Positions 52,120 to 63,774 of a stretch of 64,000 nt of DNA are shown one piece after another (positions within the stretch are counted from its first letter, which is position 1; each line of letters starts with the position of its first letter). Origin of the DNA: Lysobacteraceae bacterium (GTDB taxonomy: Bacteria > Pseudomonadota > Gammaproteobacteria > Xanthomonadales > Xanthomonadaceae); NCBI GenBank assembly GCA_044227145.1, contig JBGAFR010000002.1, positions 48,703-112,702 of the forward strand. The letters are read 5' to 3'. Made by a program: the position numbers and the translations under genes. The notes below the pieces were generated by a model that saw nothing but the letters and a program-made list of their open reading frames with translations, was not told where the DNA came from and searched no databases.

Positions 52120-52599
52120 TCAGGCGGCCCGCGACGGGCTCGCGCGGTCGCCGCGTCGATATCCGATCGCCTCCGCCACATGCGGCCCGAGGATGTCGTC
52201 GCTGCCGGCCAGATCGGCGATGGTGCGGGCGACGCGCAGGATGCGGTGCATCGAACGCGCCGAGAGCTGCAGCAGGTCGATGGCGTTCTCCAGCATCGCC
52301 TGGTCATCCGGTGCCAACCGGCAAACGGCATTCGTCTGCGCCTGGTCGAGGTGGGCGTTCAGTCGCTCCGCGCGCCGCAGCTGGGCTGCGCGGGCGCGGA
52401 CGACGCGGCTGCGGACCGTCTCGCTGGATTCGCCGGGCAGGGCGTCCGGGCGCAATTCGGCGGGCGGCAGGCGCGGGACGTCGAGGTGGAGGTCGATGCG
52501 TTCCAGCAGCGGCCCCGAGATCTTGCCGCGATAGCGCAGGATCGCTTCCGGATGGCAGCGACACCGCCCAGACGGATCGCCCGCCCAGCCACAAGGGCA
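52120..52599 (-). pseudogene. comM: Displaced 3' fragment of comM/yifB (Mg-chelatase-like ATPase), copy 1
   Basis: Begins at CPCGWAGD...YRGKISGPLLERIDL...SARSMHRILRVARTIADL...EAIGYR. No 5' half is upstream; the frame runs into island sequence. Confidence 0.9.
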
Positions 52600-52615
52600 T
52601 AGAGGCGTTGCCTTT

Positions 52616-53059
52616 TTGCCATACGTGCAGATTCGGCGTAAGTCGTTGATCCAGAAAGCATGGGGCTTCGAGCTGCAGACCTTGGGCGAGCACATCCGCC
52701 GCCGCCGGTTCATGCTCGCCATCACCCAAGAGGAGGCAGCAGCGCTCCTCGGGGTGAACGCTTGGACGGTTCACAACTGGGAGACGGGGCAGAGGAAGCC
52801 CGAGATTCGGTTCATCCCGGCTCTCGTCGAGTTCCTCGGCTACGACCCGGAGCCAGTCGATGAGGGGACACTCGCCGGTCGGCTGGTCGCTAAGCGCCGG
52901 GAGCTTGGCCTTTCTCAGCGGGAGGCAGCCCGCTCCCTCCAGATCGACCCCGGCACCTGGGCCGGGTGGGAACTCGGGGCAAGGATCGCGCGGGAGGCCC
53001 ATAGGAGGGCGCTGGAGCGGTTCTTAGAGTCCCCCGGCACAGCTTCGCAACTTGCTTAG
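52616..53059 (+). CDS. Tandem XRE helix-turn-helix protein, copy 1
   Basis: Two HTHs (TQEEAAALLGVNAWTVHNWETG; SQREAARSLQIDPGTWAGWELG); TTG start abuts the comM junction. Confidence 0.75.
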   Translation: MPYVQIRRKSLIQKAWGFELQTLGEHIRRRRFMLAITQEEAAALLGVNAWTVHNWETGQRKPEIRFIPALVEFLGYDPEPVDEGTLAGRLVAKRRELGLSQREAARSLQIDPGTWAGWELGARIAREAHRRALERFLESPGTASQLA

Positions 53060-53241
53060 GGTCGCGGCTTATCGCCCAGATTCAGGGGGCCGAAGTGCCT
53101 CTCTCGAAAAGCTGATCATTTGTTGTGTCGGCAGCCATGCCGAGCATCGCTTTCCTGTTGAAGGATGGGTCAAAGTTAGCTAGTGTGGCTCGCAAATGGA
53201 CAGGAGGCGGCATGCCTCCGCGGAGCACGGGAGGAGGGCCT

Positions 53242-53712
53242 GTGGCCGATTTGAAGAACGTGTTTATCAGTCACGTCCATGAAGATGATTCTGGATTGCA
53301 GAAGCTGAAGGATCTGCTCGCGACGAAGGGGATGACCATTCGCGATGCATCGATCCATACGGGTAAGTTCAACAACGCCAAGGATCCGGACTACATCAAG
53401 TCCGGCATCCTTGCGCCACTGATCAAGTGGGCCGGAACTTTCATTTGTTACGTATCGCCGTTGACTAAGAACAGCGAATGGGTCAACTGGGAGATCGAGT
53501 ACGCCGCGAAGCAGGGCATGCGCATCATCGGCGTCTGGCAGCAAGGCGACAAAGGCTGCGAACTCCCGGATGCGTTGAAGGAGTACGCCGACGCCGTTGT
53601 GGGATGGAATGGCGATTCGATCATTGATGCCATCAATGGCAGGGACAGCTGTGAGATGCCCGATGGAAGTCCGTGGTCACCTGTCCCGCTCAAGAGGCAC
53701 CCCTGCGGGTGA
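53242..53712 (+). CDS. TIR-domain protein (DUF1863/ThsB-like), TIR1
   Basis: VFISH, SEWVNWEIEYA (catalytic Glu) and IIGV; GGAGG ribosome-binding site before GTG 53242. Confidence 0.85.
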   Translation: MADLKNVFISHVHEDDSGLQKLKDLLATKGMTIRDASIHTGKFNNAKDPDYIKSGILAPLIKWAGTFICYVSPLTKNSEWVNWEIEYAAKQGMRIIGVWQQGDKGCELPDALKEYADAVVGWNGDSIIDAINGRDSCEMPDGSPWSPVPLKRHPCG

Positions 53713-54332
53713 GACTCTACTCATACGTTGTTCGGTACGACAGCGGATTTGCGCCCAATCCGTTCTATGGATGGTGCACCCTAGCCACCTGCAAACCCAA
53801 GATTCGCAAATCGGCGCAGGTCGGCGATTGGATTGTCGGCACGGGCAGTGACGACAAAAAAGTTCGACGCGGGAAACACCTCGTCTATGCCATGCACGTC
53901 ACCGAGATACTGACGTTCAACGAATACGATAACGACCCACGCTTTGGATCAAAGAAGCCATATCGCACGGGCAGTCGTAAGCAGAGCTGCGGCGACAACA
54001 TCTACTTTCGGAATGCGAAGAATACGCAATGGTGTCAGCGCGACTCCTTTCATTCAAATGCCGACGGCACGCGACGCTCCGATCATGTTGCCCGCGACAC
54101 GGGCGTGAACCGGGTGCTATTGAGCGATGATTTCGTCTATTTTGGCGGCAGCGGGCCACGTATCCCAGAGAGGCTGATAGCCACCAATGGCCACTCTCTT
54201 TTTAAGAAAGGTCCAGGCTACTGTGTATTTGACGACCCGCAGTTTATCGCACAAGTGGAAAAGTGGGTCGCATCGCTTGGCGATCCTGGCTACCAGGGTG
54301 CCCCATTCGAATGGATATCGCTTCGTGAATAA
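53709..54332 (+). CDS. Nmad2 (nucleotide-modification-associated domain 2) protein
   Basis: LYSYVVRYDSGFAPNPFYGWCTLATCKPKIR...GDWIVG, GDNIY, VLLSDDFVYFG; GTGA overlap with TIR1. Confidence 0.75.
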   Translation: MRLYSYVVRYDSGFAPNPFYGWCTLATCKPKIRKSAQVGDWIVGTGSDDKKVRRGKHLVYAMHVTEILTFNEYDNDPRFGSKKPYRTGSRKQSCGDNIYFRNAKNTQWCQRDSFHSNADGTRRSDHVARDTGVNRVLLSDDFVYFGGSGPRIPERLIATNGHSLFKKGPGYCVFDDPQFIAQVEKWVASLGDPGYQGAPFEWISLRE

Positions 54333-55464
54333 GCCATCGATTACAAACGGTTCCATCCTGCTGTCGGACTATGCATCGCAGATCGTGCCGACCGATGTGC
54401 TCGATGCAATAGACTTGCGGCCGGTGCAACACGGTCTTTTTGGCGAGGTGGGCGGCATCATGTCAACGGCCAAGAAGCATATCCGGGACAAGAAGGGGTT
54501 TCCGGAATACCGCCGGGCTGCGGAAGAAGAGTTTGGCGACACGCTCTGGTATTTGGCCGCGTTGTGTCGTCGTTGCGGCATTGGATTGGATGCTGTCTTC
54601 GAGCAAGCGGTGGGTGACGGGAAATATGCAACGGCACTGGCTGCGAGTGATCTTGCAACGGGATCCATTGCCACGGTGGTGGTTCCGGTGACATCGCCCG
54701 AGCTGGATGCGACGCTTGCATCGCTGGGGGTGGCGACCGCAAAACTGATGCAGGGCCAGCCCTCGATGTCCGCATTAGTCAGCTTCGCAAGGCACTACCT
54801 TGATGCGCTTCATGCGACGGGGCTGACGTTTTCGAACGTCGTCCAAGCGAACTTGCGGAAGGCGCGCAGCGCATTCTTGGAACCAGAAATCGCTGACCTC
54901 ATCAACTTCGATGCTGAATTCAAAGAAGAAGAGCAGCTACCCCCTGTTTTTCGTATTCGAATCGACCAGCGGTCCAGCGGCAAAAGCTATCTTAAGTGGA
55001 ACGGCGTCTTCATCGGCGACCCTTTGACTGATAACATCGCTGATCCCGATGGCTACCGGTTTCACGACGTGTTTCATCTCGCAAATGCCGCTATTCTTCA
55101 CTGGTCACCGGTGTTCAGAGCACTTATCAAGCACAAGCGAAAAAGTAACCAGAAGTATGACGAAGAGCAGGATAGTGGCCGGGCAATCGTTGTCGAAGAA
55201 GGGCTGACGGCTTGGTTGTTTTCTCGTGCCAAGGCTTTGGATTACTTTGAGGGTCATGATCGCGTATCGTTGGGCATCCTCAAAACGGTCCAGGAATTTG
55301 TTGCTGGGTACGAGGTTGAGCGGTGCCCGATGAAGCTGTGGGAACGATCCATTCTTCAAGGGTATGACGTCTTTCGTCAGGTGCGTGAAGCGAAGGGCGG
55401 GTTTGTGATCGGTGATCGAAAAGCCAGGACTCTGCAATACGAACCACTGGAGGGCAAAGCATGA
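54325..55464 (+). CDS. MazG-like nucleotide pyrophosphohydrolase with a MazG_C domain
   Basis: GLFGEVG and EEEFGDTLWYLA acidic motifs; C-terminal DGYRFHDVFH...RKS...DSGRAIVVEEG. Confidence 0.8.
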   Translation: MNKPSITNGSILLSDYASQIVPTDVLDAIDLRPVQHGLFGEVGGIMSTAKKHIRDKKGFPEYRRAAEEEFGDTLWYLAALCRRCGIGLDAVFEQAVGDGKYATALAASDLATGSIATVVVPVTSPELDATLASLGVATAKLMQGQPSMSALVSFARHYLDALHATGLTFSNVVQANLRKARSAFLEPEIADLINFDAEFKEEEQLPPVFRIRIDQRSSGKSYLKWNGVFIGDPLTDNIADPDGYRFHDVFHLANAAILHWSPVFRALIKHKRKSNQKYDEEQDSGRAIVVEEGLTAWLFSRAKALDYFEGHDRVSLGILKTVQEFVAGYEVERCPMKLWERSILQGYDVFRQVREAKGGFVIGDRKARTLQYEPLEGKA

Positions 55465-56147
55465 GCGTTCATCCTTTCGTCAAGGCAGTATCGTCTCTGC
55501 GCTTTGAAAATGCATTTAACCCTTACTCTGATCGCTGCGAAGTGCATGATCGCCAGGACGCACCACAGCGCCGTGCGAAGGCATTGTCTGCGGTCGTCTC
55601 GAAGGCGACGGAGACAGCCGTTGATGCGGTGTGGATCGGTCGTGACCTTGGATACCGCGGTGGGCGACGGACGGGTCTTGCACTGACCGATGACGTACAC
55701 GTTTCTCGGCATGCAGAGCGCTGGAATGTGCGCGCAGAACGGCAGACGGTGGGAGAAGCCGTCTCCGAACGAACGGCTGCGGTGATATGGGGCATGCTCG
55801 ATCAGATCGATGAGCCCATATTTCTCTGGAATGTGTTTCCTTTGCACCCCCACGAAGCCGGATCACCGTTTACGAATCGTCAGCATAATGTGCGCGAGCG
55901 CCAAGCTGGAGAGGAAATCCTGAGCTTGTTGTTGGACTTGCTGAGGCCGCGCCGTGTCCTCGCAGTGGGCAACGATGCGTTTGGTGCCGCGGCGCGGGTC
56001 GCCAGCCAGTGCGCAGTGACGCTGGTTCGGCACCCCAGCTACGGAGGGCAACGTCAGTTTGAACGTCAGGTGGCAGATCTTTATGACTTGCGTGGACGCA
56101 ACGGCTCGTTCGCGTTCCCATGTCAAGAAGAAATGGCGCACGCCTAA
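55461..56147 (+). CDS. Uracil-DNA glycosylase superfamily protein
   Basis: FNPY, IGRDLGYRGGRRTGLALTD motif A, LWNVFPLHPH..NR, and VRHPSYGG motif B; ATGA overlap with MazG. Confidence 0.8.
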   Translation: MSVHPFVKAVSSLRFENAFNPYSDRCEVHDRQDAPQRRAKALSAVVSKATETAVDAVWIGRDLGYRGGRRTGLALTDDVHVSRHAERWNVRAERQTVGEAVSERTAAVIWGMLDQIDEPIFLWNVFPLHPHEAGSPFTNRQHNVRERQAGEEILSLLLDLLRPRRVLAVGNDAFGAAARVASQCAVTLVRHPSYGGQRQFERQVADLYDLRGRNGSFAFPCQEEMAHA

Positions 56148-56216
56148 CTAAGTGTGAGGTCGGTCGGTCTGCTGGTAACGGTGGCGTGCTAGCGAAATTA
56201 ATTGACTGGAATCAAT

Positions 56217-56798
56217 ATGGCGTTACTTTCAGAGGCGATGGTAAGGCAAGCGGCCGCACGCACTAAGGTTGTTGCTTCGATGGAAAGTGCAAGTGAAATC
56301 TTGCGTGAAGCACGGAAAACAACCCGAAGCAGCTTTGACATTTTCTTGTCCCACTCGAAGCTAGATAGCGACTTGGTCTTAGGAGTCAAATCTGTTCTCG
56401 AATCTATCGGGAAAACAGTCTACGTTGATTGGATTGATGATCCTCTGTTGGATCGTAGCAACGTAACGCCGAAGACTGCCGAAAAGCTTCGCATGCGTAT
56501 GCGTCAGTGCAAATCTCTTTTCTATGCGCATTCTGAAAATGCAACCACTTCGCGATGGATGCCGTGGGAAATCGGATATTTTGACGGCTTCAATTCAAAC
56601 GTGGCGATCTTGCCGATTTCCCGCAGCGAAAATCAGACCACCTTCGCTGGGGTTGAATATCTGGGCTTGTATCCGTATGTCGATGTAACCGGGCGTACCG
56701 TGTCTTCGGCAGGAACTCTCTATTTGCACCGTAATGCAGGCGACTACGCGGGGTTTGATCGGTGGGTCTTGTCGACAGACAAACTGCGCCCGCTCTAA
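56217..56798 (+). CDS. TIR-domain protein, TIR2
   Basis: FDIFLSHS, VYVDWIDD and SRWMPWEIGYFDG (catalytic Glu). Confidence 0.85.
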   Translation: MALLSEAMVRQAAARTKVVASMESASEILREARKTTRSSFDIFLSHSKLDSDLVLGVKSVLESIGKTVYVDWIDDPLLDRSNVTPKTAEKLRMRMRQCKSLFYAHSENATTSRWMPWEIGYFDGFNSNVAILPISRSENQTTFAGVEYLGLYPYVDVTGRTVSSAGTLYLHRNAGDYAGFDRWVLSTDKLRPL

Positions 56799-56834
56799 TG
56801 GCTTGACGAATTACTTACCTAGTGAGGTTGTGAT

Positions 56835-57974
56835 ATGGCCCTCTACGAGATAGCGGTGCTCGGAGATCCGACTGAAGAGCAATTGGACCTGTTGACGGAC
56901 GGATTGAAGACGGCAGCAAACGACTTTCAGCTTACATACGGAACAGACCTTCTCCTTCACATAAATCCGCACAAATTTGAGCCGGGGGATAGGTCGGCTG
57001 CCGTGGCCGTCTTCTTTGGTAGTCCCGATGTAGTGGCGACAGACCTTCAGGTGCATTTCGATACTTCCAGAATTCCTGTCTTACCTGTTGCATCAAGCGA
57101 GAAGCGCGTGGGGGCGGAGATTCCAGAGTCGCTGAAGACGATCAACTGCCTGCTTTACGACAAAGCGAGTGCGCAACTTGTGCCTGCCATATTGAGTAGT
57201 TTGGGGCTCATGTTGCGGACGCGCAGAGTTTTTTTAAGCTACAGAAGAACGGAGTCAACGCCAGCCGCAGTTCAGCTATTCGGCGAAATATCTGCGAGAC
57301 GTTTTGACGTGTTCCTCGATACGCATAGCGTGAACGTCGCGGAAGAATTCCAAGATGAATTGTGGCACCAGCTATGCGATTCGGATGTGCTCGTGTTGTT
57401 GCAGACGCCAGGATACTTTGAAAGTCGCTGGACAATGGCCGAGTGGGGCAGGGCTCTCTCAAAAGGAGTTGGCATACTCAGTGTCGATTGGCCTGATTCC
57501 ACGCCTTCGATCCATACAGGAACGGCGAGCCGCGTGGAGTTGATACGCTCGGAAATCAATGCAGATGGCACTTTGGCGGCATCGGCAGTGGAGAGAATCT
57601 GTCACCAGATTGAGAAAGTGAGAATTACAAGCCAAGCGGTAAGACACATCTCACTAATCACTTCTGTCCAGGATGCGGTTACCAAAATTGGCGGAAGACT
57701 TCTTCGCATCAGCGCGAATCGAACACTTCACGTAACGCTGGCTACAGGGCGAAAGATTGCAGTGCAGCCAAGAATAGGTGTGCCAACTTCCCTAACAGCC
57801 CAAGAGGCGCTCGATAGGGCTCAAGGAGACCATGCGGCGGTTGTGTACGATCATTTAGGGATTCGTCCGAACTGGCAAAAGCATCTACGTTGGCTAGGGG
57901 AGCATGTTCCATCGGCAAGATGGGTTAAAGCGAGTGAAGCGGGCTGGACATTCGCAGGATGGGAGACTCCATGA
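56835..57974 (+). CDS. Multidomain TIR protein, TIR3
   Basis: Central RVFLSYRR...DVFLD...DSDVLVLL..FESRWTMAEW, with uncharacterised N- and C-terminal alpha/beta domains. Confidence 0.8.
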   Translation: MALYEIAVLGDPTEEQLDLLTDGLKTAANDFQLTYGTDLLLHINPHKFEPGDRSAAVAVFFGSPDVVATDLQVHFDTSRIPVLPVASSEKRVGAEIPESLKTINCLLYDKASAQLVPAILSSLGLMLRTRRVFLSYRRTESTPAAVQLFGEISARRFDVFLDTHSVNVAEEFQDELWHQLCDSDVLVLLQTPGYFESRWTMAEWGRALSKGVGILSVDWPDSTPSIHTGTASRVELIRSEINADGTLAASAVERICHQIEKVRITSQAVRHISLITSVQDAVTKIGGRLLRISANRTLHVTLATGRKIAVQPRIGVPTSLTAQEALDRAQGDHAAVVYDHLGIRPNWQKHLRWLGEHVPSARWVKASEAGWTFAGWETP

Positions 57975-58585
57975 GCGCCATTTTTCTATCAGCAAGCATC
58001 CCTGTTGCAGGGCGTGGCACCTACTATGAGGATGCTGATCCTTTCCTCATACAGTTCGCGGTGAGGGAACTCCTTGTCGTTGCATTAGGAAGGCGTCCGA
58101 TTGTGTGGGGTGGGCATCCTGCTATCACGCCTATGGTGTGGAGCGTGTGCGAAGACCTAGGTGTTCAGTATGCGCAATCCGTGCTGCTCTTCCAGAGCAA
58201 ACTCTTTCAGGACTTCTTCCCACAAGAGAACGAACGTTTTGCAAATGTTCGTTATGTCGATGCAGTCCAAGATGATCGAGAGAGAAGCCTTCAATCTATG
58301 CGGAAAAGCATGATGGAGGGTGAGTTTGAGGCGGGTGTTTTTATTGGCGGCATGAATGGGGTTGAAGAGGAGTGCGATCTCTTCATGCAGTTGCACCCTC
58401 GCGCCAAGATCATTGCGCTCGGCTCTCCTGGTGGTGCTGCAAAGCGGATCGCCAAGAAACGCGATGAGGACATTGAACGAATAGACTACCTACGCCTATT
58501 TGCAGAGCGCCTTGAAATAGATACAACCGAGCCGCGAAATTCACGTGTTTTTGAGAACGATCATATCGCTAGGCCAAGCTTCTAA
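57971..58585 (+). CDS. Stand-alone SLOG-domain protein
   Basis: IFLSASIP, IVWGGHPAIT, SLQSMR, GVFIGGMNGVEEE and GSPGGAA; ATGA overlap with TIR3. Confidence 0.8.
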   Translation: MSAIFLSASIPVAGRGTYYEDADPFLIQFAVRELLVVALGRRPIVWGGHPAITPMVWSVCEDLGVQYAQSVLLFQSKLFQDFFPQENERFANVRYVDAVQDDRERSLQSMRKSMMEGEFEAGVFIGGMNGVEEECDLFMQLHPRAKIIALGSPGGAAKRIAKKRDEDIERIDYLRLFAERLEIDTTEPRNSRVFENDHIARPSF

Positions 58586-58628
58586 TGTCTCAAATAAAAG
58601 GGTCAGGGCAATTTTCGTCAAGACTTCT

Positions 58629-59108
58629 TCATGCTGCCCTTGTCGGAGTCGCCCTCTCCCCGCGCCGATAACCGATGGCTTCCGCAACGTGCGGGCCGAG
58701 GATATCGGCACTTCCGGCGAGGTCGGCGATGGTGCGGGCCACGCGGAGGATTCGGTGCATCGAACGCGCCGAGAGTTGCAGCAGGTCGATCGCGTTCTCC
58801 AGCATGGATTGATCATCGGGCGCGAGCCGGCACACCGCGTTCGTTTCGGATTGATCCAGATGCGCGTTGCAGCGGCCGGCGCGTTGTCGCTGCACTTCGC
58901 GCGCACGGACGACGCGGGTGCGGACGACGTCGCTGGATTCGCCCGCGGGTGCGTCGGGGCGCAGTTCGGCGGGCGACAGTCGCGGCACGTCGAGATGCAG
59001 GTCGATGCGTTCGAGCAGCGGCCCGGAGATCTTGCCGCGATAGCGTGCGATCGCTTCGGGATGGCAGCGGCAGCGGCCGGACGGATCGCCGGCCCAGCCG
59101 CAGGGGCA
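58629..59108 (-). pseudogene. comM: Displaced 3' fragment of comM/yifB, copy 2
   Basis: CPCGWAGD...ISGPLLERIDL...EAIGYR; same 480-bp length as copy 1 with synonymous divergence. Confidence 0.9.
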
Positions 59109-59577
59109 TAGAGGCGTTGCCTTTTTGCCATACGTGAGGATTCGGCGTAAGTCGCTGATTCAGAAAGCATGGGACTTCGAGCCGAAGAGCTTGGGCGACC
59201 ACATCCGCCGTCGCCGGCTCATGCTCGCCATCACCCAAGAGGAGGCGGCGCAGCGCCTCGGCGTGAACGCCTGGACGGTTCACAATTGGGAGACGGGGCA
59301 GAGGAAGCCCGAGATTCGGTTCATCCCTGCCCTTGTCGCATTCCTCGGCTATGACCCGGAGCCGGTCGATGAGGGGACGCTCGCCGGTCGGCTGGTCGCT
59401 AGGCGGCGTCAGCTTGGCCTCTCTCAGCGCGAGGCAGCCCGTTCCCTCCAGATCGACCCCGGCACATGGGCTGGGTGGGAGCTTGGGGCCAGTATCGCTA
59501 GGGAAGCCCACAGGAGGGCGGTGGAGGGGTTCTTAGAGAACCCCGGCACAGCTTCGCAACTTGCTCAAGGTCGCGGC
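58629..59577. repeat. Direct repeat copy 2 (comM 3' fragment + double-HTH gene)
   Basis: Colinear with 52120-53068. Confidence 0.9.
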
Positions 59578-59583
59578 CGATGA
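59125..59583 (+). CDS. Tandem XRE helix-turn-helix protein, copy 2
   Basis: Near-identical paralog of 52616-53059; the TAG stop is replaced by CAA, extending the ORF by 5 codons. Confidence 0.75.
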   Translation: MPYVRIRRKSLIQKAWDFEPKSLGDHIRRRRLMLAITQEEAAQRLGVNAWTVHNWETGQRKPEIRFIPALVAFLGYDPEPVDEGTLAGRLVARRRQLGLSQREAARSLQIDPGTWAGWELGASIAREAHRRAVEGFLENPGTASQLAQGRGR

Positions 59584-60136: not shown

Positions 60137-60469
60137 ATGGCATCAGACTTTCCCTCCCGCCTAAAGGCGACCCGTGAGCTACGTGAACTAACCCAGGGAG
60201 ACTTAAGCAAGCTTGCAGGTCTACCAGCGACCACGATCTCTCACTTCGAGAGTGGTTCTCGAAAGCCATCGTTTGATAACCTGAGGCGGCTGGCTAAGGC
60301 GTTAAGTGTCAGCACTGATTACTTAATGGGTATCACTGATACACCCGATGCAACCACCGCCGCTACGCGGATAGCAAGACATCTCCCAAATGCCACTGAA
60401 GACGAGATATCGATGCTAGAAGCTGTAGCAAAATCACTAGCTGATAGGAGACCGCCAAGCGATGGATAG
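60137..60469 (+). CDS. XRE-family HTH repressor
   Basis: RLKATRELRELTQGDLSKLAGLPATTISHFESGSRKPSFDNLRRLAKAL. Confidence 0.9.
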   Translation: MASDFPSRLKATRELRELTQGDLSKLAGLPATTISHFESGSRKPSFDNLRRLAKALSVSTDYLMGITDTPDATTAATRIARHLPNATEDEISMLEAVAKSLADRRPPSDG

Positions 60470-61322
60470 TTTGCGGCGTCGAACGATTGAGGCAAAAGCA
60501 GAAGAGCTTTTGCATGATGCAGGGATAGCAGCTTTACCAGTCAAGCCGCAACAATTGGCCGAACATCTTGGCATTCAAGTACACGCTAAGCCTGCTTCGA
60601 TCAAGGGTGCCTCCGGTTGGTTGGTTCGATCCGGGGACGAGTTCGCAATCATCTACGCTACATATATCGATAGCATCGGCTTTCAACACTTCAGCATAGC
60701 CCACGAGTTGGGCCATTACATGCTGGATGGTCATCCCGAGCATGTGTTCCGCAATGGTGGCGAGCATGCGTCGCATGCTGGTTTCGAAGCAGCGGATCAC
60801 ATTGAGCGAGAAGCCGATCACTTCGCAGCATGCCTGCTCATGCCGAAGGAGTTGTGCCGATCTCTGATTGGCCGCAGTCGCGACGGATTAGAGGCAGTTC
60901 TCCATATTGCCAATCAATGCGAAACGTCATTGACCGCCGCTGCGCTCCGCTATGCAGAGATTGGGCAGCTTCCAGTCGGCATCGTCCAAGCTTACCAAGG
61001 CAAAGTCGAATTCTGTGCGGCCTACCCTATGCAAGCGCATGTTGGTTGGGCTAGACCGCTTCTGCGCAATGCAAAAGTCCCCGTTGACAGTGCAACGAGT
61101 CGCCTGTCTCAAGACCAGGAAGCGATTCTGCGAGGCGGTGAAGATAGCGACAGCAGTCAAGCGAGCGATTGGTTTCCAGGAGCAGATTCTAAAGCCGGGC
61201 TCATAGAGGAAGTGATCGGTCTCGGCAAGTTCGGTCGGACGCTGACCATTCTCACTCTCGATCCGGACGCAGCAGGCACGGATGAAGATGATGATGGTTG
61301 GGAAGAGCCACGCTTTCGCTAG
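60462..61322 (+). CDS. ImmA/IrrE (CapP-like) zinc metallopeptidase
   Basis: FSIAHELGHY HEXXH motif, EREADHFAACLLMP and ETSLTAAALRY; overlaps the XRE stop. Confidence 0.88.
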   Translation: MDSLRRRTIEAKAEELLHDAGIAALPVKPQQLAEHLGIQVHAKPASIKGASGWLVRSGDEFAIIYATYIDSIGFQHFSIAHELGHYMLDGHPEHVFRNGGEHASHAGFEAADHIEREADHFAACLLMPKELCRSLIGRSRDGLEAVLHIANQCETSLTAAALRYAEIGQLPVGIVQAYQGKVEFCAAYPMQAHVGWARPLLRNAKVPVDSATSRLSQDQEAILRGGEDSDSSQASDWFPGADSKAGLIEEVIGLGKFGRTLTILTLDPDAAGTDEDDDGWEEPRFR

Positions 61323-61339
61323 CGAGATTTGAGACTGAC

Positions 61340-62095
61340 ATGGCGGCCTTACCATATCTAATCGCATATCTCGGAGCAGGGTTCTTGCTCGCGTGCGGAT
61401 TTTTAATGAACAACAAGATTTCTTGGCCGAAGAAATTTCTGGTGGCCGGAATTATGATGGTCTTTTGGCCGCTATTTGCATTTGCGGTGCCGGAATCATT
61501 TTTCAAGCCAAGCAAGGAAGAGGCAGCGGCCAGAAACGGAGATCGGCTAACAATAGAGCTAACAAAGCTCTTGCAAGGAGAGTCTGACGGCCTATCTCAG
61601 GTCTTGGGAGAAAAAGTCGCTCGTGTAGCGAAAGGGGGCGATAAAGCAGTTACTTACTTCGGTGTCCCAGGTAGCTTAGATGATGTGCTAGAGGCATTCT
61701 GGGATGAAAATATCCCACCATCGATATACATCAGTCTGCTTTGGGCGCGGGATGAGCTAAAAGAACATGAGCCTCACGATGGGCCGCTTTTCAGTCGCCG
61801 TCCACCTGATTGGTACGTGGGATTTTCACACGAATTTCTCAAGTGCATAGCAAAAGCTGATGGCAAGTTAAGGGGGCGCATACTGGATGCAATCGGCAAG
61901 ATATCTGAGGCTCCTATGGAAGCCGTAGGCGATACTGTCAAGCCGCTTACCAGCAATCTGTCTGGGCTCTGGCGCTATCGAATAGGTGATGATCGTCTTG
62001 TGTATTTCCCGGATCACGAAGAAAAGAAGATCACGTTGATCTTTTTTGGGGCTCGGGGCGATGTGTATAAAAAGGTGTCGCCGCTAGACTCATGA
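61340..62095 (+). CDS. Membrane-anchored protein with a C-terminal RelE/ParE toxin domain
   Basis: Two N-terminal TM helices; C-terminal WYVGFSHEFLK...RILDAI...KPLTSNLSGLWRYRIGDDRLVY...GARGDVY. Confidence 0.7.
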   Translation: MAALPYLIAYLGAGFLLACGFLMNNKISWPKKFLVAGIMMVFWPLFAFAVPESFFKPSKEEAAARNGDRLTIELTKLLQGESDGLSQVLGEKVARVAKGGDKAVTYFGVPGSLDDVLEAFWDENIPPSIYISLLWARDELKEHEPHDGPLFSRRPPDWYVGFSHEFLKCIAKADGKLRGRILDAIGKISEAPMEAVGDTVKPLTSNLSGLWRYRIGDDRLVYFPDHEEKKITLIFFGARGDVYKKVSPLDS

Positions 62096-62145
62096 TCCGA
62101 TCATATCCCGTATGCCATCTGTCAAAGTCTCTGTGGAGGTCGATA

Positions 62146-62433
62146 ATGAAGCAGGTAGACACAAACAAGCTTCGAGAAATTATTGAGTCGGAAGTAAAAT
62201 CGGACACCGAGCAGATGTTCTACAAGGATGCGTTCGCGGCTGGCTGCTACCTTCACAAAGAAGGGCATCACGCGGCAGCGGGCAAGCTATGTAACGGTGT
62301 GCTCAAGTCGCTTGGGTACAACAAGAGGAAGACGTACTTTGCTGAGTTGCTTGATAACATGAGTGGCAATGAAGACCTCTACGCGCAGTGCATGTGGGCT
62401 CATCATGAGCTCAATGAGCTTTTCCGTTCTTGA
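62146..62433 (+). CDS. Hypothetical protein (95 aa)
   Basis: GGAGG ribosome-binding site before ATG 62146; no recognised motif. Confidence 0.55.
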   Translation: MKQVDTNKLREIIESEVKSDTEQMFYKDAFAAGCYLHKEGHHAAAGKLCNGVLKSLGYNKRKTYFAELLDNMSGNEDLYAQCMWAHHELNELFRS

Positions 62434-62975
62434 CCTCTGAGGTGCGCGTGATTACCGATCACTTGAAGGCAAAGGTTCTGGCATCTGTCGCTAGCGGCAT
62501 GTCGATCTCGGAGGCTGCTGCGCGGCATGGCATCGATGTTAGCCAGGCCAGGAATGGTATTGCGCGCATCTGTAGGGATAGCAAGCTGCCGTCTGAGGTA
62601 TCCAAGATACATGCCAATCCAGCGCCCTACAAAAAGGCCGCAGAGAGGGTCATAAACACGCCTCGCTATGGATTGAGGAAAGCCCTGCGCAAAGACATGG
62701 AGTATCAATTGCAGCTTCAGTCTGCCGACCAAATTGAGCCGGGCTACATCTCCAATCTGACTGCGGCTATGATTCTCGATGCTGGAATCACGGATGTTGG
62801 CCTTGCTGAGATTCAAGAATGGATGGCTGGCTATGACGCAAGTCTCAAGAAGAAAGCCCCAGGGAGTGCCGAGCATCTAGTTTTGGTCAGAAGAGCAATG
62901 TATGTGCTCGACTCCTTTGGTGTTGAGGTGGAAAGCGCAAAGAAGCAGATTGAATCCTTTACGCAGGAAGACTGA
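62430..62975 (+). CDS. Hypothetical protein with a possible N-terminal HTH
   Basis: GMSISEAAARHGIDVSQARNGIARIC resembles an HTH; start codon uncertain. Confidence 0.55.
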   Translation: MTSEVRVITDHLKAKVLASVASGMSISEAAARHGIDVSQARNGIARICRDSKLPSEVSKIHANPAPYKKAAERVINTPRYGLRKALRKDMEYQLQLQSADQIEPGYISNLTAAMILDAGITDVGLAEIQEWMAGYDASLKKKAPGSAEHLVLVRRAMYVLDSFGVEVESAKKQIESFTQED

Positions 62976-63015
62976 TCACTTGCAAGATTGGCAGCAAGAA
63001 TGGAGTCATGGAATT

Positions 63016-63774
63016 ATGAACAAGAAAAAAGCACTAGCGCTCTTTGCCATGATGCTCAGTGTCATTGGCATGGCTGCGTGTGCGCAACCTACTCCAAGCA
63101 CTCAGGCTCGATCAGAAGTATCCGATCCAGCGACAGAGGAAGCTGCACGGGTAGCCGAAGCGGCCGACGCGGCTGCAATAGCGTCAGGATCAGAGGATGG
63201 CAAGAAGGAGGGTGTGCCCGTGACTACAGAATCAATGTCTGAGAAGACAGTAGGCCCATCAATTGCATCAACGTTGCTGGAAGAGCGCATCTTGCGCTTT
63301 GTTGACGGCATACGCTCGTCACCAGATATGACGCGCAGTCGTCTCGAAGAGGTGATGCAGGTGAGGCTAGAGCAGGATACAGAACTGCAAGGATGGTGGT
63401 GGTACACCGGTGCCGCTGATGAAAAGTGGCAATACACGATAAAGATTGACGAGAGAAGCAAGGATGATTCTCTCCCGCTAGTCACAATCAGCTTTTCGGC
63501 GGGAGACGTCGAAGGAAATGCAAGGGCGACGGTCTGCACCTATGAGCTTGAAGCCTTCGCTCAATCGCTTATCGCGATTGGATACACCCGCCATTCCGGC
63601 TGGAAGCAGCCAGGTGGGCATCTTGTATTCAGTAGGGAACGGGCTGGTACGCGGTTCAGCTCGACCGTGAAAGTGCGCAAGTACATCCAGCAGACCGGAT
63701 CAGGCGTGAACGATTACCAGTATTGCGTCTACGCAATCAGCATGTCGGCTGGAGAGCTACTCGATGGCGAGTAA
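63016..63774 (+). CDS. Lipoprotein, candidate immunity protein
   Basis: MNKKK plus hydrophobic core plus MAAC lipobox; 3' end overlaps the next ORF by 11 bp. Confidence 0.6.
   Translation: MNKKKALALFAMMLSVIGMAACAQPTPSTQARSEVSDPATEEAARVAEAADAAAIASGSEDGKKEGVPVTTESMSEKTVGPSIASTLLEERILRFVDGIRSSPDMTRSRLEEVMQVRLEQDTELQGWWWYTGAADEKWQYTIKIDERSKDDSLPLVTISFSAGDVEGNARATVCTYELEAFAQSLIAIGYTRHSGWKQPGGHLVFSRERAGTRFSSTVKVRKYIQQTGSGVNDYQYCVYAISMSAGELLDGE

What the first reader, a model, noticed from the sequence alone, without database searches (positions are those of the whole stretch)
53242..58585. All seven cargo genes may form one signalling network rather than two systems
Seen: TIR1-Nmad2-MazG-UDG and TIR2-TIR3-SLOG are contiguous and co-oriented, separated by only a 69-bp gap, with no obvious terminator hairpin. 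TIR1 has no evident effector unless it signals to the SLOG module. Inference: Nmad2, MazG and UDG could be sensors or signal editors feeding TIR1, with several TIRs acting as alternative phage sensors converging on one SLOG receptor.
Basis: inference. Interest (0 to 1): 0.7.

Follow-up and report, generated by a model that had tools for sequence, protein, structure and literature searches.

The report
Composite TIR–SLOG phage-defence gene cluster
The seven genes are a known anti-phage system (type III Thoeris: TIR proteins plus a small SLOG protein) joined to a mobile four-gene TIR–Nmad2–MazG–UDG cassette that, across many bacteria, sits next to Thoeris SLOG genes far too often for chance, so the two halves probably share one signalling pathway, although this has not been tested experimentally.

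Summary
Seven co-oriented genes lie at 53242-58585 with a 69-bp gap and no terminator-like hairpin in it.

TIR3 and SLOG are type III Thoeris proteins ThcB4 and ThcA; both pass NCBIfam equivalog cut-offs. TIR2 is a ThsB-type TIR.

TIR1-Nmad2-MazG-UDG is a rigid, translationally coupled cassette, with the same gene order in 80 of 80 genome loci. It is absent from PADLOC and NCBIfam as a system.

In this window the two halves were joined recently. The closest ThcB4/ThcA relatives (96/95% identity) have a small TIR gene where the cassette sits. The right breakpoint falls inside the 69-bp gap.

Across genomes the halves are not independent:
- 45 of 55 well-flanked cassette loci, or 21 of 31 dereplicated lineages, adjoin a Thoeris SLOG gene. 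This is ThcB4-ThcA in four arrangements, or canonical SIR2-SLOG ThsA.
- In several lineages TIR1 is the only small TIR beside ThcB4-ThcA, or the only TIR beside ThsA.
- About 70% of ThcB4-ThcA loci lack the cassette, and a third of cassette lineages stand alone.

Verdict: one modular TIR-to-SLOG network is likely (about 0.6). The roles of Nmad2, MazG and UDG remain inferred.

The parts
52120..52725 (-). comM/YifB (Mg-chelatase-like) 3' gene fragment, copy A. Left part of the ~950-bp direct repeat that brackets the seven genes.
   Evidence: Pfam Mg_chelatase_C 6e-31. Repeat 52120-53070 against 58629-59580 at ~86% identity.
52616..53059 (+). XRE-type HTH gene, copy A (probable ATG at 52709). Conserved gene upstream of the defence cargo in related islands.
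   Evidence: HTH_31 3e-16. The same gene precedes the Thoeris genes in L001-L005 and L168. Homology to cassette-less relatives ends at about 53068.
53242..53712 (+). TIR1: ThsB-type TIR protein, first gene of the cassette. Predicted catalytic Glu84 (53491-53493). Conserved C-terminal ...H-P-C-G tail.
   Evidence: ThsB_TIR 2e-20; PADLOC ThsB PDLC00418 1.8e-80. Directly upstream of Nmad2 in 80/80 loci. W-x-x-W-E motif kept in 81/82 relatives. Tail conservation.
53709..54332 (+). Nmad2 (nucleotide modification associated domain 2). GTG start overlaps the TIR1 stop (GTGA).
   Evidence: PF18753 2e-73. Overlap read. Many invariant Cys/His/Asp residues. Only weak fold resemblance to ASCH/EVE PUA-like domains.
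54325..55464 (+). MazG-type NTP pyrophosphatase with a MazG_C domain. Probable GTG start overlaps the Nmad2 end by 8 nt.
   Evidence: MazG_C 2e-78. EEFGDxLWY motif invariant in 68 relatives. Weak match of the N-terminal part to dCTP pyrophosphatase DCTPP1/RS21-C6. Homologue L182 also hits PF03819 MazG.
55461..56147 (+). UDG-superfamily (uracil-DNA-glycosylase-like) protein. ATGA overlap with the MazG gene.
   Evidence: PF03167 24.6 bits against cut-off 24.3. Motifs GRDLGYRG and RHPSYGG invariant in 66 relatives. No close solved structure.
56148..56216 (.). 69-bp intergenic gap. It contains the right-hand recombination joint (about 56194) between the cassette and the Thoeris III block.
   Evidence: blastn homology to cassette-less relatives starts at 56194. 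Alignment. No terminator-like site. Fold z = -0.84.
56217..56798 (+). TIR2: ThsB-type TIR protein. Predicted catalytic Glu118 (56568-56570).
   Evidence: PADLOC ThsB PDLC00422 5.5e-65. Matches PDB 8BTN TIR protein at 7e-46. Glu invariant in 22/22. The same family sits beside canonical ThsA in L033, L045, L058.
56835..57974 (+). TIR3 = ThcB4 of type III Thoeris. A 379-aa protein with a central TIR domain and extra N- and C-terminal regions. Predicted catalytic Glu203 (57441-57443).
   Evidence: NCBIfam NF058526 Thoeris_type3_ThcB4, 399.8 bits against cut-off 220. Immediately upstream of the SLOG gene wherever upstream sequence was present. Glu invariant in 94/94. TIR part aligns with the SARM1 TIR.
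57959..58585 (+). SLOG protein = ThcA of type III Thoeris. Overlaps the ThcB4 gene by 16 nt.
   Evidence: NCBIfam NF058525 ThcA, 227 bits against cut-off 110. PF18180 3e-63. Model pLDDT 87; best fold match is EcThsA 8wc0 (prob 0.96), then DprA, LOG and TRPM2. WGGHPAITP and GGMxGxxxE invariant in 116 relatives.
58629..59583 (.). Second copy of the comM 3' fragment (- strand, 58629-~59170) plus the XRE HTH gene (+ strand, 59125-59583). Right bracket of the seven genes and start of the next cargo block.
   Evidence: HTH_31 3e-17.

Best explanation
The locus is a composite of two exchangeable modules that most likely work as one TIR-to-SLOG (Thoeris-type) signalling network.

Module B (TIR2, ThcB4 = TIR3, ThcA = SLOG) is a type III Thoeris system. 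Its invariant core is the translationally coupled ThcB4-ThcA pair. Variable small ThsB-type TIR genes accompany that core.

Module A (TIR1-Nmad2-MazG-UDG) is a rigid, translationally coupled cassette whose TIR1 occupies a small-ThsB slot. In this window it replaced a 124-aa TIR gene that the closest relatives carry at that position.

Inferred mechanism:
- Each catalytically intact TIR protein responds to infection by converting NAD+ into an ADP-ribose-derived signal.
- TIR1 does so under the control of, or with the help of, its three pyrimidine-nucleotide/base-handling partners: Nmad2, a DCTPP1-like MazG pyrophosphatase, and a UDG-like glycosylase.
- The signals converge on the ThsA-like SLOG fold of ThcA. 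ThcA, together with its obligate partner ThcB4 (a probable TIR NADase), executes the response.

What is shown: gene content, module boundaries, the recent swap, the cross-genome linkage, and conservation of catalytic motifs.

What is inferred: the signal, its direction, the effector, and the roles of Nmad2, MazG and UDG.
For: 1. Identity of module B. NCBIfam equivalog hits to Thoeris type III ThcB4 and ThcA pass the curated cut-offs. The ThcA model's best fold match is the ThsA SLOG.

2. The cassette is one unit. TIR1-Nmad2-MazG-UDG shows the same order in 80/80 genome loci, with 4-8 nt gene overlaps.

3. Linkage to SLOG genes.
- Of 55 cassette loci with at least 5 kb on both sides, 39 have ThcB4-ThcA within 12-2700 bp: 29 convergent, 6 co-directional upstream, 4 co-directional downstream.
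- Six more have canonical SIR2+STALD ThsA.
- After dereplication at 90% identity: 16 lineages with ThcB4-ThcA, 5 with ThsA, 10 with neither, of 31 in total.
- Divergent cassettes (TIR1 about 40%, Nmad2 about 47% identity) also follow ThcB4-ThcA. Some carry a dCTP-deaminase-like enzyme and a radical SAM enzyme in place of MazG-UDG.

4. TIR1 behaves as the ThsB.
- Six-gene blocks in L008/9, L034, L038, L059, L066, L072 and L073 have no other TIR.
- Five-gene blocks TIR1-Nmad2-MazG-UDG-ThsA in L050 and L071 have no other TIR.
- Cassette-free ThcB4-ThcA loci have another small TIR in 28 of 30 cases, against 43 of 57 cassette-bearing loci (Fisher p = 0.046).

5. Slot exchange in this window. Window 56194-58589 matches L001 at 93%. 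L001 and L005 carry a 124-aa ThsB_TIR where the window has the 3.1-kb cassette.

6. All three TIRs keep the catalytic Glu. The SLOG, MazG and UDG motifs are invariant.

7. The P. aeruginosa ICE cargo is also a seven-gene block: the cassette plus ThsB_TIR-ThcA-ThcB4.
Against: - The modules are separable. Only about 30% of ThcB4-ThcA loci carry the cassette: 8 of 20 well-flanked metagenome loci and 0 of 7 further contexts.
- 10 of 31 cassette lineages have no SLOG gene within 8-10 kb.
- A divergent MazG-UDG-X-Nmad2 set sits alone between psu and int of a P4-like satellite, which suggests it can work on its own.
- The window's two halves have discordant histories. The cassette is nearest L008/9, whose ThcB4/ThcA are only about 50% identical to the window's.
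- Defence genes cluster in islands, so adjacency alone is not proof of function.
- The test of TIR1 substituting for a small TIR is only marginally significant, it is not corrected for shared ancestry, and divergent TIRs may have been missed.
- No expression, biochemical or phage data exist for this locus.
- The paper that defined type III Thoeris (van den Berg et al. 2024) could not be read.
Confidence: 0.6

Rival explanations
1. Two independent anti-phage systems lie side by side. One is a complete type III Thoeris (TIR2-ThcB4-ThcA). The other is a self-sufficient four-gene system in which TIR1 acts with Nmad2, MazG and UDG as its own effectors, for example by destroying pyrimidine nucleotides or attacking uracil-containing or modified phage DNA. 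On this view their frequent adjacency reflects defence-island accretion, co-mobilisation or synergy, not a shared signal.
For: - The closest relatives of the window's Thoeris block lack the cassette.
- Most ThcB4-ThcA loci lack it.
- 10 of 31 cassette lineages stand alone.
- A divergent version is the only cargo between psu and int of a P4-like satellite, a place where, from my own knowledge (Rousset et al. 2022, not read here), complete defence systems are found.
- The window's two halves were joined by recombination at an intergenic joint.
Against: - Random island clustering does not predict one specific partner class in 68-82% of loci. The partners are SLOG-bearing Thoeris receptors of two different families, at distances of 12-700 bp in four orientations.
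- It does not predict blocks in which TIR1 is the only TIR available to ThcB4-ThcA or to ThsA.
- No domain in the cassette is a known receptor of TIR products.
Confidence: 0.25
2. The two modules are coupled, but Nmad2, MazG and UDG are not sensors. On one version they chemically build or edit the signal: they process the TIR1 product or supply a base for TIR-catalysed base exchange. On another version they covalently prime TIR1, in the way that nucleotide-modification-like accessory enzymes prime the cyclase in type IV CBASS.
For: - TIR1 and Nmad2 are the invariant pair, while the downstream enzymes vary: MazG-UDG, or dCTP-deaminase-like plus radical SAM.
- All enzymes keep their catalytic motifs.
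- TIR1 and even its very divergent relatives keep a conserved C-terminal ...H/K-x-C-G tail outside the TIR fold.
- ThcA keeps a LOG-like GGxGxxxE motif.
- The precedent of deazaguanylation in type IV CBASS is cited in the reference list read. The parallel itself is my inference.
Against: - There is no direct evidence for any substrate.
- ThsA-type SLOG domains in L050 and L071 would be expected to read ordinary 3'cADPR (established knowledge of type I Thoeris, quoted). That argues against an exotic signal.
- The Nmad2 fold matches are too weak to assign a chemistry.
Confidence: 0.1
3. The cassette is not a defence system. It is a DNA or nucleotide modification/repair pathway, as its Pfam names suggest, that travels with mobile elements. 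TIR1 would act as a nucleotide-processing enzyme rather than an immune signal generator.
For: - The Pfam family names and the enzyme types: pyrophosphatase, glycosylase, and a variant with a dCTP-deaminase-like enzyme and a radical SAM enzyme.
- None of Nmad2, MazG or UDG hits any PADLOC model.
Against: - The cassette sits consistently in defence contexts: Thoeris I and III, Mrr and Schlafen-like helicase neighbours, ICE and P4 hotspot positions.
- TIR1 is a full-length match to a PADLOC ThsB profile.
- The cassette has a tight, orientation-independent linkage to SLOG receptors.
Confidence: 0.05

Closest known systems
Type III Thoeris (ThcA plus ThcB TIR proteins; van den Berg et al. 2024, Cell Host & Microbe 32:1427, known here only through NCBIfam models and a citing preprint)
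   Same: - ThcA and ThcB4 equivalog models are matched well above their cut-offs.
- Several TIR genes accompany one small SLOG protein, as a citing preprint describes the system.
- The ThcB4-ThcA pair is invariant across more than 100 loci.
   Different: - The window also carries TIR1-Nmad2-MazG-UDG in the position where the closest relatives have a plain small TIR gene.
- TIR1 and TIR2 match no Thc model.
- The signalling mode of type III is described as uncharacterised, so no mechanistic comparison is possible.
Type I Thoeris (ThsB TIR plus ThsA SIR2-SLOG)
   Same: - The logic is TIR generator plus SLOG receiver.
- The ThcA model's best structural match is EcThsA.
- TIR1, TIR2 and TIR3 all match PADLOC ThsB profiles.
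- The same cassette sits next to genuine ThsA (SIR2_2 + STALD) in L033, L045, L050, L054, L058, L070 and L071.
   Different: - The window has no SIR2 domain.
- Its SLOG belongs to Pfam LD_cluster3, not STALD, and is a stand-alone 208-aa protein.
- The effector is therefore not evident. It is proposed here to be the partner TIR protein ThcB4.
Type IV CBASS accessory enzymes (QueC-like and TGT-like proteins that conjugate a deazaguanine base to the cyclase; Wassarman et al. 2025, cited in the reference list read)
   Same: A nucleotide-second-messenger defence system whose signal-making enzyme is co-encoded with enzymes that resemble nucleotide or base modification enzymes, including a DNA-glycosylase-like protein.
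   Different: - The enzyme families are different, and the signal generator is a TIR rather than a CD-NTase.
- No conjugation has been shown here. The parallel is an analogy from my own knowledge, not a test.
Nucleotide-depleting defences and MazG/DCTPP1-type pyrophosphatases (dCTP deaminase and dGTPase defence systems)
   Same: - The MazG EExxD motif is conserved, and there is a weak match to dCTP pyrophosphatase 1.
- A variant cassette carries a dCTP-deaminase-like protein.
- The theme of acting on pyrimidine nucleotides is shared.
   Different: - Those systems are single enzymes.
- Here the pyrophosphatase is fused to MazG_C and is locked into an operon with a TIR, Nmad2 and a UDG-like protein.
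- No substrate is known.

Membership tests
Type III Thoeris | A ThcA-type stand-alone SLOG protein | tested here: met
   NF058525 Thoeris_type3_ThcA equivalog, 227.4 bits against cut-off 110. PF18180 3e-63.
Type III Thoeris | A ThcB4-type TIR protein encoded with ThcA | tested here: met
   NF058526 ThcB4 equivalog, 399.8 bits against cut-off 220. The gene overlaps thcA by 16 nt.
Type III Thoeris | Several TIR-domain proteins in the operon | tested here: met
   TIR1, TIR2 and TIR3 all have TIR domains with the catalytic Glu. The requirement is taken from the description quoted.
Type III Thoeris | Protection against phage; identity of the signal | not testable with these tools
   This needs plaque assays and metabolite analysis. 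The defining paper was not held.
Type I Thoeris | ThsA effector with a SIR2 domain fused to a STALD-type SLOG | tested here: not met
   No SIR2 domain in any of the seven proteins. The SLOG is LD_cluster3. No PADLOC ThsA hit.
Type I Thoeris | ThsB TIR protein with catalytic glutamate | tested here: met
   PADLOC ThsB profiles hit at 1.8e-80, 5.5e-65 and 9e-69. Glu conserved.
Uracil-DNA glycosylase superfamily | UDG fold and motifs A and B with catalytic residues; uracil excision activity | tested here: inconclusive
   PF03167 is only just above its cut-off (24.6 against 24.3 bits). GRDLGYRG and RHPSYGG are invariant in the family, but no solved relative was found. Activity is untested.
MazG / all-alpha NTP pyrophosphatase | MazG helical domain with the EExxE/D metal-binding motif | tested here: met
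   EEFGDxLWY invariant in 68 relatives. Weak DCTPP1/RS21-C6 match. Homologue L182 hits PF03819 MazG at 1.9e-10. MazG_C 2e-78.
Nmad2 (PF18753) | Full-length match to the family model | tested here: met
   246.6 bits against cut-off 26.1, covering profile positions 3-197 of 200. The function of the family is unknown.

The most novel reading that the evidence does not exclude
The TIR1-Nmad2-MazG-UDG cassette is a previously uncharacterised input branch of Thoeris immunity in which nucleotide and base chemistry is part of sensing or signalling. One version: the UDG-like and MazG enzymes release or process a pyrimidine base or nucleotide, possibly a phage-specific one, which TIR1 couples to ADP-ribose to make a new signal. 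Another version: the three enzymes covalently prime TIR1 at its conserved C-terminal Cys tail, as in type IV CBASS. Either output would be read by both type I (ThsA) and type III (ThcA) SLOG receptors.
Probability: 0.12. Interest if true: 0.85.

Novelty: new variant of a known kind. Interest (0 to 1): 0.6.

Why it matters
Type III Thoeris is described as having an uncharacterised mode of signalling, and its small SLOG protein has no obvious killing domain.

This analysis defines three things:
- An invariant ThcB4-ThcA core.
- Exchangeable small-TIR slots around that core.
- A widespread four-gene cassette that plugs into both type I and type III Thoeris. It is found in Pseudomonas aeruginosa ICEs, Stenotrophomonas, Achromobacter, Paraburkholderia and many environmental bacteria.

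If TIR1 feeds the SLOG receptors, the cassette would be the first Thoeris input that comes with dedicated nucleotide and base enzymes. That would give a concrete handle on how TIR sensors are triggered, or on what new ADP-ribose-derived signals exist. It would also show that type I and type III systems share a signal.

The practical gain is a short, clear list of epistasis and biochemical experiments.

Tried and rejected
- Co-transcription across the gap. The only runs labelled RNA that hold the locus are assembled metagenome contigs at depth 4-6. Their breaks fall inside genes as well as in the gap. This is uninformative, so RT-PCR is still needed.
- Literature. No held paper mentions Nmad2, LD_cluster3, MazG_C or ThcA. 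Burroughs et al. 2015 and van den Berg et al. 2024 are not held. Two reviews or comparative papers from the Aravind group gave only general statements on SLOG and TIR. I therefore cannot say whether the cassette-Thoeris neighbourhood was already noted computationally; the Pfam family names suggest it may have been.
- Sequence search of ThcA against solved structures found nothing useful. The fold search was needed.
- The Nmad2 fold search gave only non-significant ASCH/EVE/PUA-like matches (E at least 0.3). It is treated as a hint only.
- I first thought the small TIR of L001 might be a TIR1 homologue. BLASTP shows it is unrelated (E = 0.89).
- The mirror-tree correlation between MazG and ThcB4 identities is moderate (r = 0.59). 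It is not used as evidence because the loci are related by transfer.
- The P4-hotspot variant has no match in E. coli genomes.
- Treating the flanking comM-fragment/HTH repeats as the ends of a simple integrase-borne element was rejected. No integrase lies between the repeats, and the syntenic locus L005 has the island beside an intact comM.

Full report
**1. The observation**

The window is about 70% G+C, and 53.0-58.6 kb is a 51-57% G+C island. Seven + strand ORFs fill 53242-58585.

| Gene | Coordinates | Evidence |
|---|---|---|
| TIR1 | 53242-53712 | ThsB_TIR; PADLOC ThsB PDLC00418 1.8e-80 |
| Nmad2 | 53709-54332 | PF18753 2e-73 |
| MazG | 54325-55464 | MazG_C PF18722 2e-78 |
| UDG-like | 55461-56147 | PF03167, marginal: 24.6 bits against a cut-off of 24.3 |
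| TIR2 | 56217-56798 | PADLOC ThsB PDLC00422 5.5e-65 |
| TIR3 | 56835-57974 | PADLOC ThsB PDLC00434 9e-69 |
| SLOG | 57959-58585 | LD_cluster3 PF18180 3e-63 |

- The first four genes overlap by 4, 8 and 4 nt.
- TIR3 and SLOG overlap by 16 nt.
- The UDG-TIR2 gap is 69 bp. It has no terminator-like site and no structure beyond chance (z = -0.84).
- Single contigs from three other metagenomes carry the whole arrangement at about 98% identity.

**2. What the second half is**

NCBIfam names TIR3 "Thoeris type III ThcB4" (399.8 bits, cut-off 220) and the SLOG protein "Thoeris type III ThcA" (227 bits, cut-off 110). [quoted passage not shown] 2024. That paper is not held.

- The AlphaFold model of ThcA (pLDDT 87) is most like the E. 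coli ThsA structure. Next come DprA, LOG-type proteins and the ADPR-binding domain of TRPM2.
- TIR2 is close to a solved TIR protein, PDB 8BTN (7e-46).
- In about 100 SLOG-centred loci, ThcB4 lies immediately upstream of ThcA wherever upstream sequence was present.
- The pair is accompanied by one to three small ThsB-type TIR genes. Sometimes there is also a SLOG-cluster2-patatin protein or a TIR-TPR protein.

So the core is ThcB4-ThcA, and the small TIRs are variable add-ons.

**3. What the first half is**

A scan of one genome per species with an Nmad2 profile gave 80 loci.

- In all 80, TIR1 is directly upstream of Nmad2. MazG and UDG follow wherever the contig continues.
- None of Nmad2, MazG or UDG hits any PADLOC or NCBIfam model.
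- The predicted catalytic motifs are invariant across relatives: the TIR Glu, MazG EEFGDxLWY, and UDG GRDLGYRG and RHPSYGG.
- The N-terminal part of MazG weakly resembles dCTP pyrophosphatase 1.
- The Nmad2 model (pLDDT 75) has only non-significant matches, mostly to ASCH/EVE PUA-like domains.

**4. Are the two halves linked?**

*In this window they were joined recently.*
- The window's ThcB4 and ThcA are 96% and 95% identical to those of L001, and 93% and 88% to L005.
- Window 56194-58589 aligns to L001 at 93%.
- Between the conserved HTH gene and TIR2, those relatives carry a 124-aa ThsB_TIR gene unrelated to TIR1. The window has the 3.1-kb cassette there instead.
- The right joint lies inside the 69-bp gap. 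The left joint lies about 10 nt after the HTH stop.
- The cassette's nearest relatives are L008 and L009 (TIR1 92%, MazG 89%, UDG 87%). Their own ThcB4 and ThcA are only about 50% identical to the window's.

*Across genomes the halves are far from independent.* The table covers the 55 cassette loci with at least 5 kb on both sides and the lineages left after dereplication at 90% identity.

| Neighbour of the cassette | Loci (of 55) | Lineages (of 31) |
|---|---|---|
| ThcB4-ThcA | 39 | 16 |
| Canonical ThsA (SIR2_2 + STALD) | 6 | 5 |
| No SLOG gene | 10 | 10 |

- Of the 39 loci with ThcB4-ThcA, 29 are convergent, 6 are co-directional upstream and 4 are co-directional downstream. Two further divergent cases have shorter flanks.
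- Divergent cassettes (about 40-49% identity) also follow ThcB4-ThcA. Some carry a dCTP-deaminase-like enzyme plus a radical SAM enzyme in place of MazG-UDG.
- The P. aeruginosa ICE cargo is integrase, RelE/HTH, then the cassette convergent with ThsB_TIR-ThcA-ThcB4.

*In the other direction the link is weaker.* The cassette accompanies only about 30% of ThcB4-ThcA pairs: 8 of 20 well-flanked metagenome loci and 0 of 7 further contexts.

**5. Does TIR1 talk to SLOG?**

Two kinds of locus say so.
- Six-gene blocks (cassette plus ThcB4-ThcA) in at least seven lineages contain no other TIR, by homology search and by Pfam on their neighbours. Cassette-free ThcB4-ThcA loci carry a small TIR in 28 of 30 cases (Fisher p = 0.046, not corrected for ancestry).
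- In L050 (Brevundimonas) and L071 (a sphingomonad) the operon is TIR1-Nmad2-MazG-UDG-ThsA with no other TIR. Type I ThsA is activated by a TIR product (established knowledge, quoted).

Together with the slot exchange in this window, this makes TIR1 a ThsB-equivalent input.

**6. Evidence on the other side**

- Ten lineages have no SLOG gene nearby.
- A divergent MazG-UDG-X-Nmad2 set is the only cargo between psu and int of a P4-like satellite. The short protein X upstream of Nmad2 there was not recognised by Pfam. The X protein at the same position in L178 resembles TIR1 (hhalign 94.8% probability), whereas the L182 X protein reaches only 61%.
- The cassette may therefore be able to act alone. 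Adjacency in defence islands is not proof of function. Co-transcription could not be tested.

**7. Mechanism**

*Shown:*
- Module boundaries.
- The recent swap.
- The cross-genome linkage.
- Conservation of catalytic residues.

*Inferred:*
- Each TIR makes an NAD+-derived signal on infection.
- TIR1 does so together with its pyrimidine-nucleotide/base enzymes.
- ThcA binds the signal through its ThsA-like SLOG fold.
- ThcA acts with its obligate partner ThcB4, a TIR protein with intact catalytic Glu and SARM1-like core motifs, as a split analogue of SIR2-SLOG ThsA.

I put the single-network reading at about 0.6, two independent co-located systems at 0.25, a signal-editing or TIR-priming version at 0.1, and a non-defence modification pathway at 0.05.

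**8. Comparison and novelty**

- TIR2-ThcB4-ThcA is a member of type III Thoeris (known).
- In the sources I could reach, the cassette and its preferential attachment to type I and type III Thoeris are not described. The Pfam names suggest the neighbourhood may have been seen computationally, but I could not check this.
- I rate the whole as a new variant of a known kind.

**9. Context**

The seven genes lie between two copies of a 950-bp block made of a comM 3' fragment and an XRE HTH gene. A second low-G+C cargo block follows the second copy. Locus L005 is syntenic and carries the island next to an intact comM.

Noticed in passing
window 52120-53070 and 58629-59580: A ~950-bp direct repeat (~86% identity), each copy made of a comM/YifB 3' gene fragment (- strand) and an XRE HTH gene (+ strand), brackets the seven genes. 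No integrase lies between the copies. In the syntenic locus L005 (malate synthase, isocitrate lyase ... island ... intact 503-aa comM) the island sits beside a whole comM. This looks like tandem accretion or exchange of cargo blocks at a comM-linked hotspot.
   Followed up: partly
window 60137-63774: After the second repeat copy comes another low-G+C cargo block. It holds an XRE HTH (60137-60469), an IrrE/ImmA-like M78 peptidase (60462-61322), a 265-aa protein with a YoeB-like C-terminus (61298-62095) and three ORFs with no or only weak Pfam hits. It may be a separate toxin-antitoxin or defence unit.
   Followed up: partly
L091 10606-14329; L106 10715-14432: A variant cassette sits directly after ThcB4-ThcA. 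It has divergent TIR1 and Nmad2, followed by an unknown 231-aa ORF, a dCTP-deaminase-like protein (PF22769) and a radical SAM/SPASM enzyme in place of MazG-UDG. The invariant unit therefore seems to be TIR1-Nmad2, with interchangeable pyrimidine-nucleotide enzymes.
   Followed up: partly
L059 14248-15867 (-); L174 6799-8427 (+): A SLOG-cluster2-patatin phospholipase is encoded in the same operon as ThcB4-ThcA in two unrelated loci. It may be an extra SLOG-gated effector of type III Thoeris.
   Followed up: no
L182 2454-7924: In a P4-like satellite the order is Psu, MazG-MazG_C, UDG-like, a 144-aa protein, Nmad2, then an integrase on the opposite strand. This places a divergent form of the cassette alone in the satellite's known defence hotspot. 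There is no match in E. coli genomes.
   Followed up: partly
window 53650-53712 (TIR1 residues ~137-156): TIR1 has a tail outside the TIR fold with Asp141-Gly142, His153 and Cys155 conserved in at least 95% of 82 relatives. The divergent X proteins upstream of Nmad2 in L178 and L182 also end in ...K-C-G/Q. The function is unknown; it could be a contact or modification site.
   Followed up: partly
L169-L171 7434-20054 (Pseudomonas aeruginosa assemblies): The cassette plus ThsB_TIR-ThcA-ThcB4 is the first cargo after the integrase and a RelE/HTH pair of an element that also carries RadC, DUF932 and ParB. The same block is inserted at two different chromosomal sites. Near-identical cassettes occur in 13 species of several genera, which points to recent horizontal spread.
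   Followed up: partly
window 53709-54332 compared with L008 and L168: The cassette is a mosaic. TIR1, MazG and UDG are 87-92% identical to L008/L009, but Nmad2 is only 74% identical. A 2.9-kb farmland metagenome contig (L168) has a 99% identical Nmad2 in the same comM-fragment/HTH/TIR1 context.
   Followed up: no
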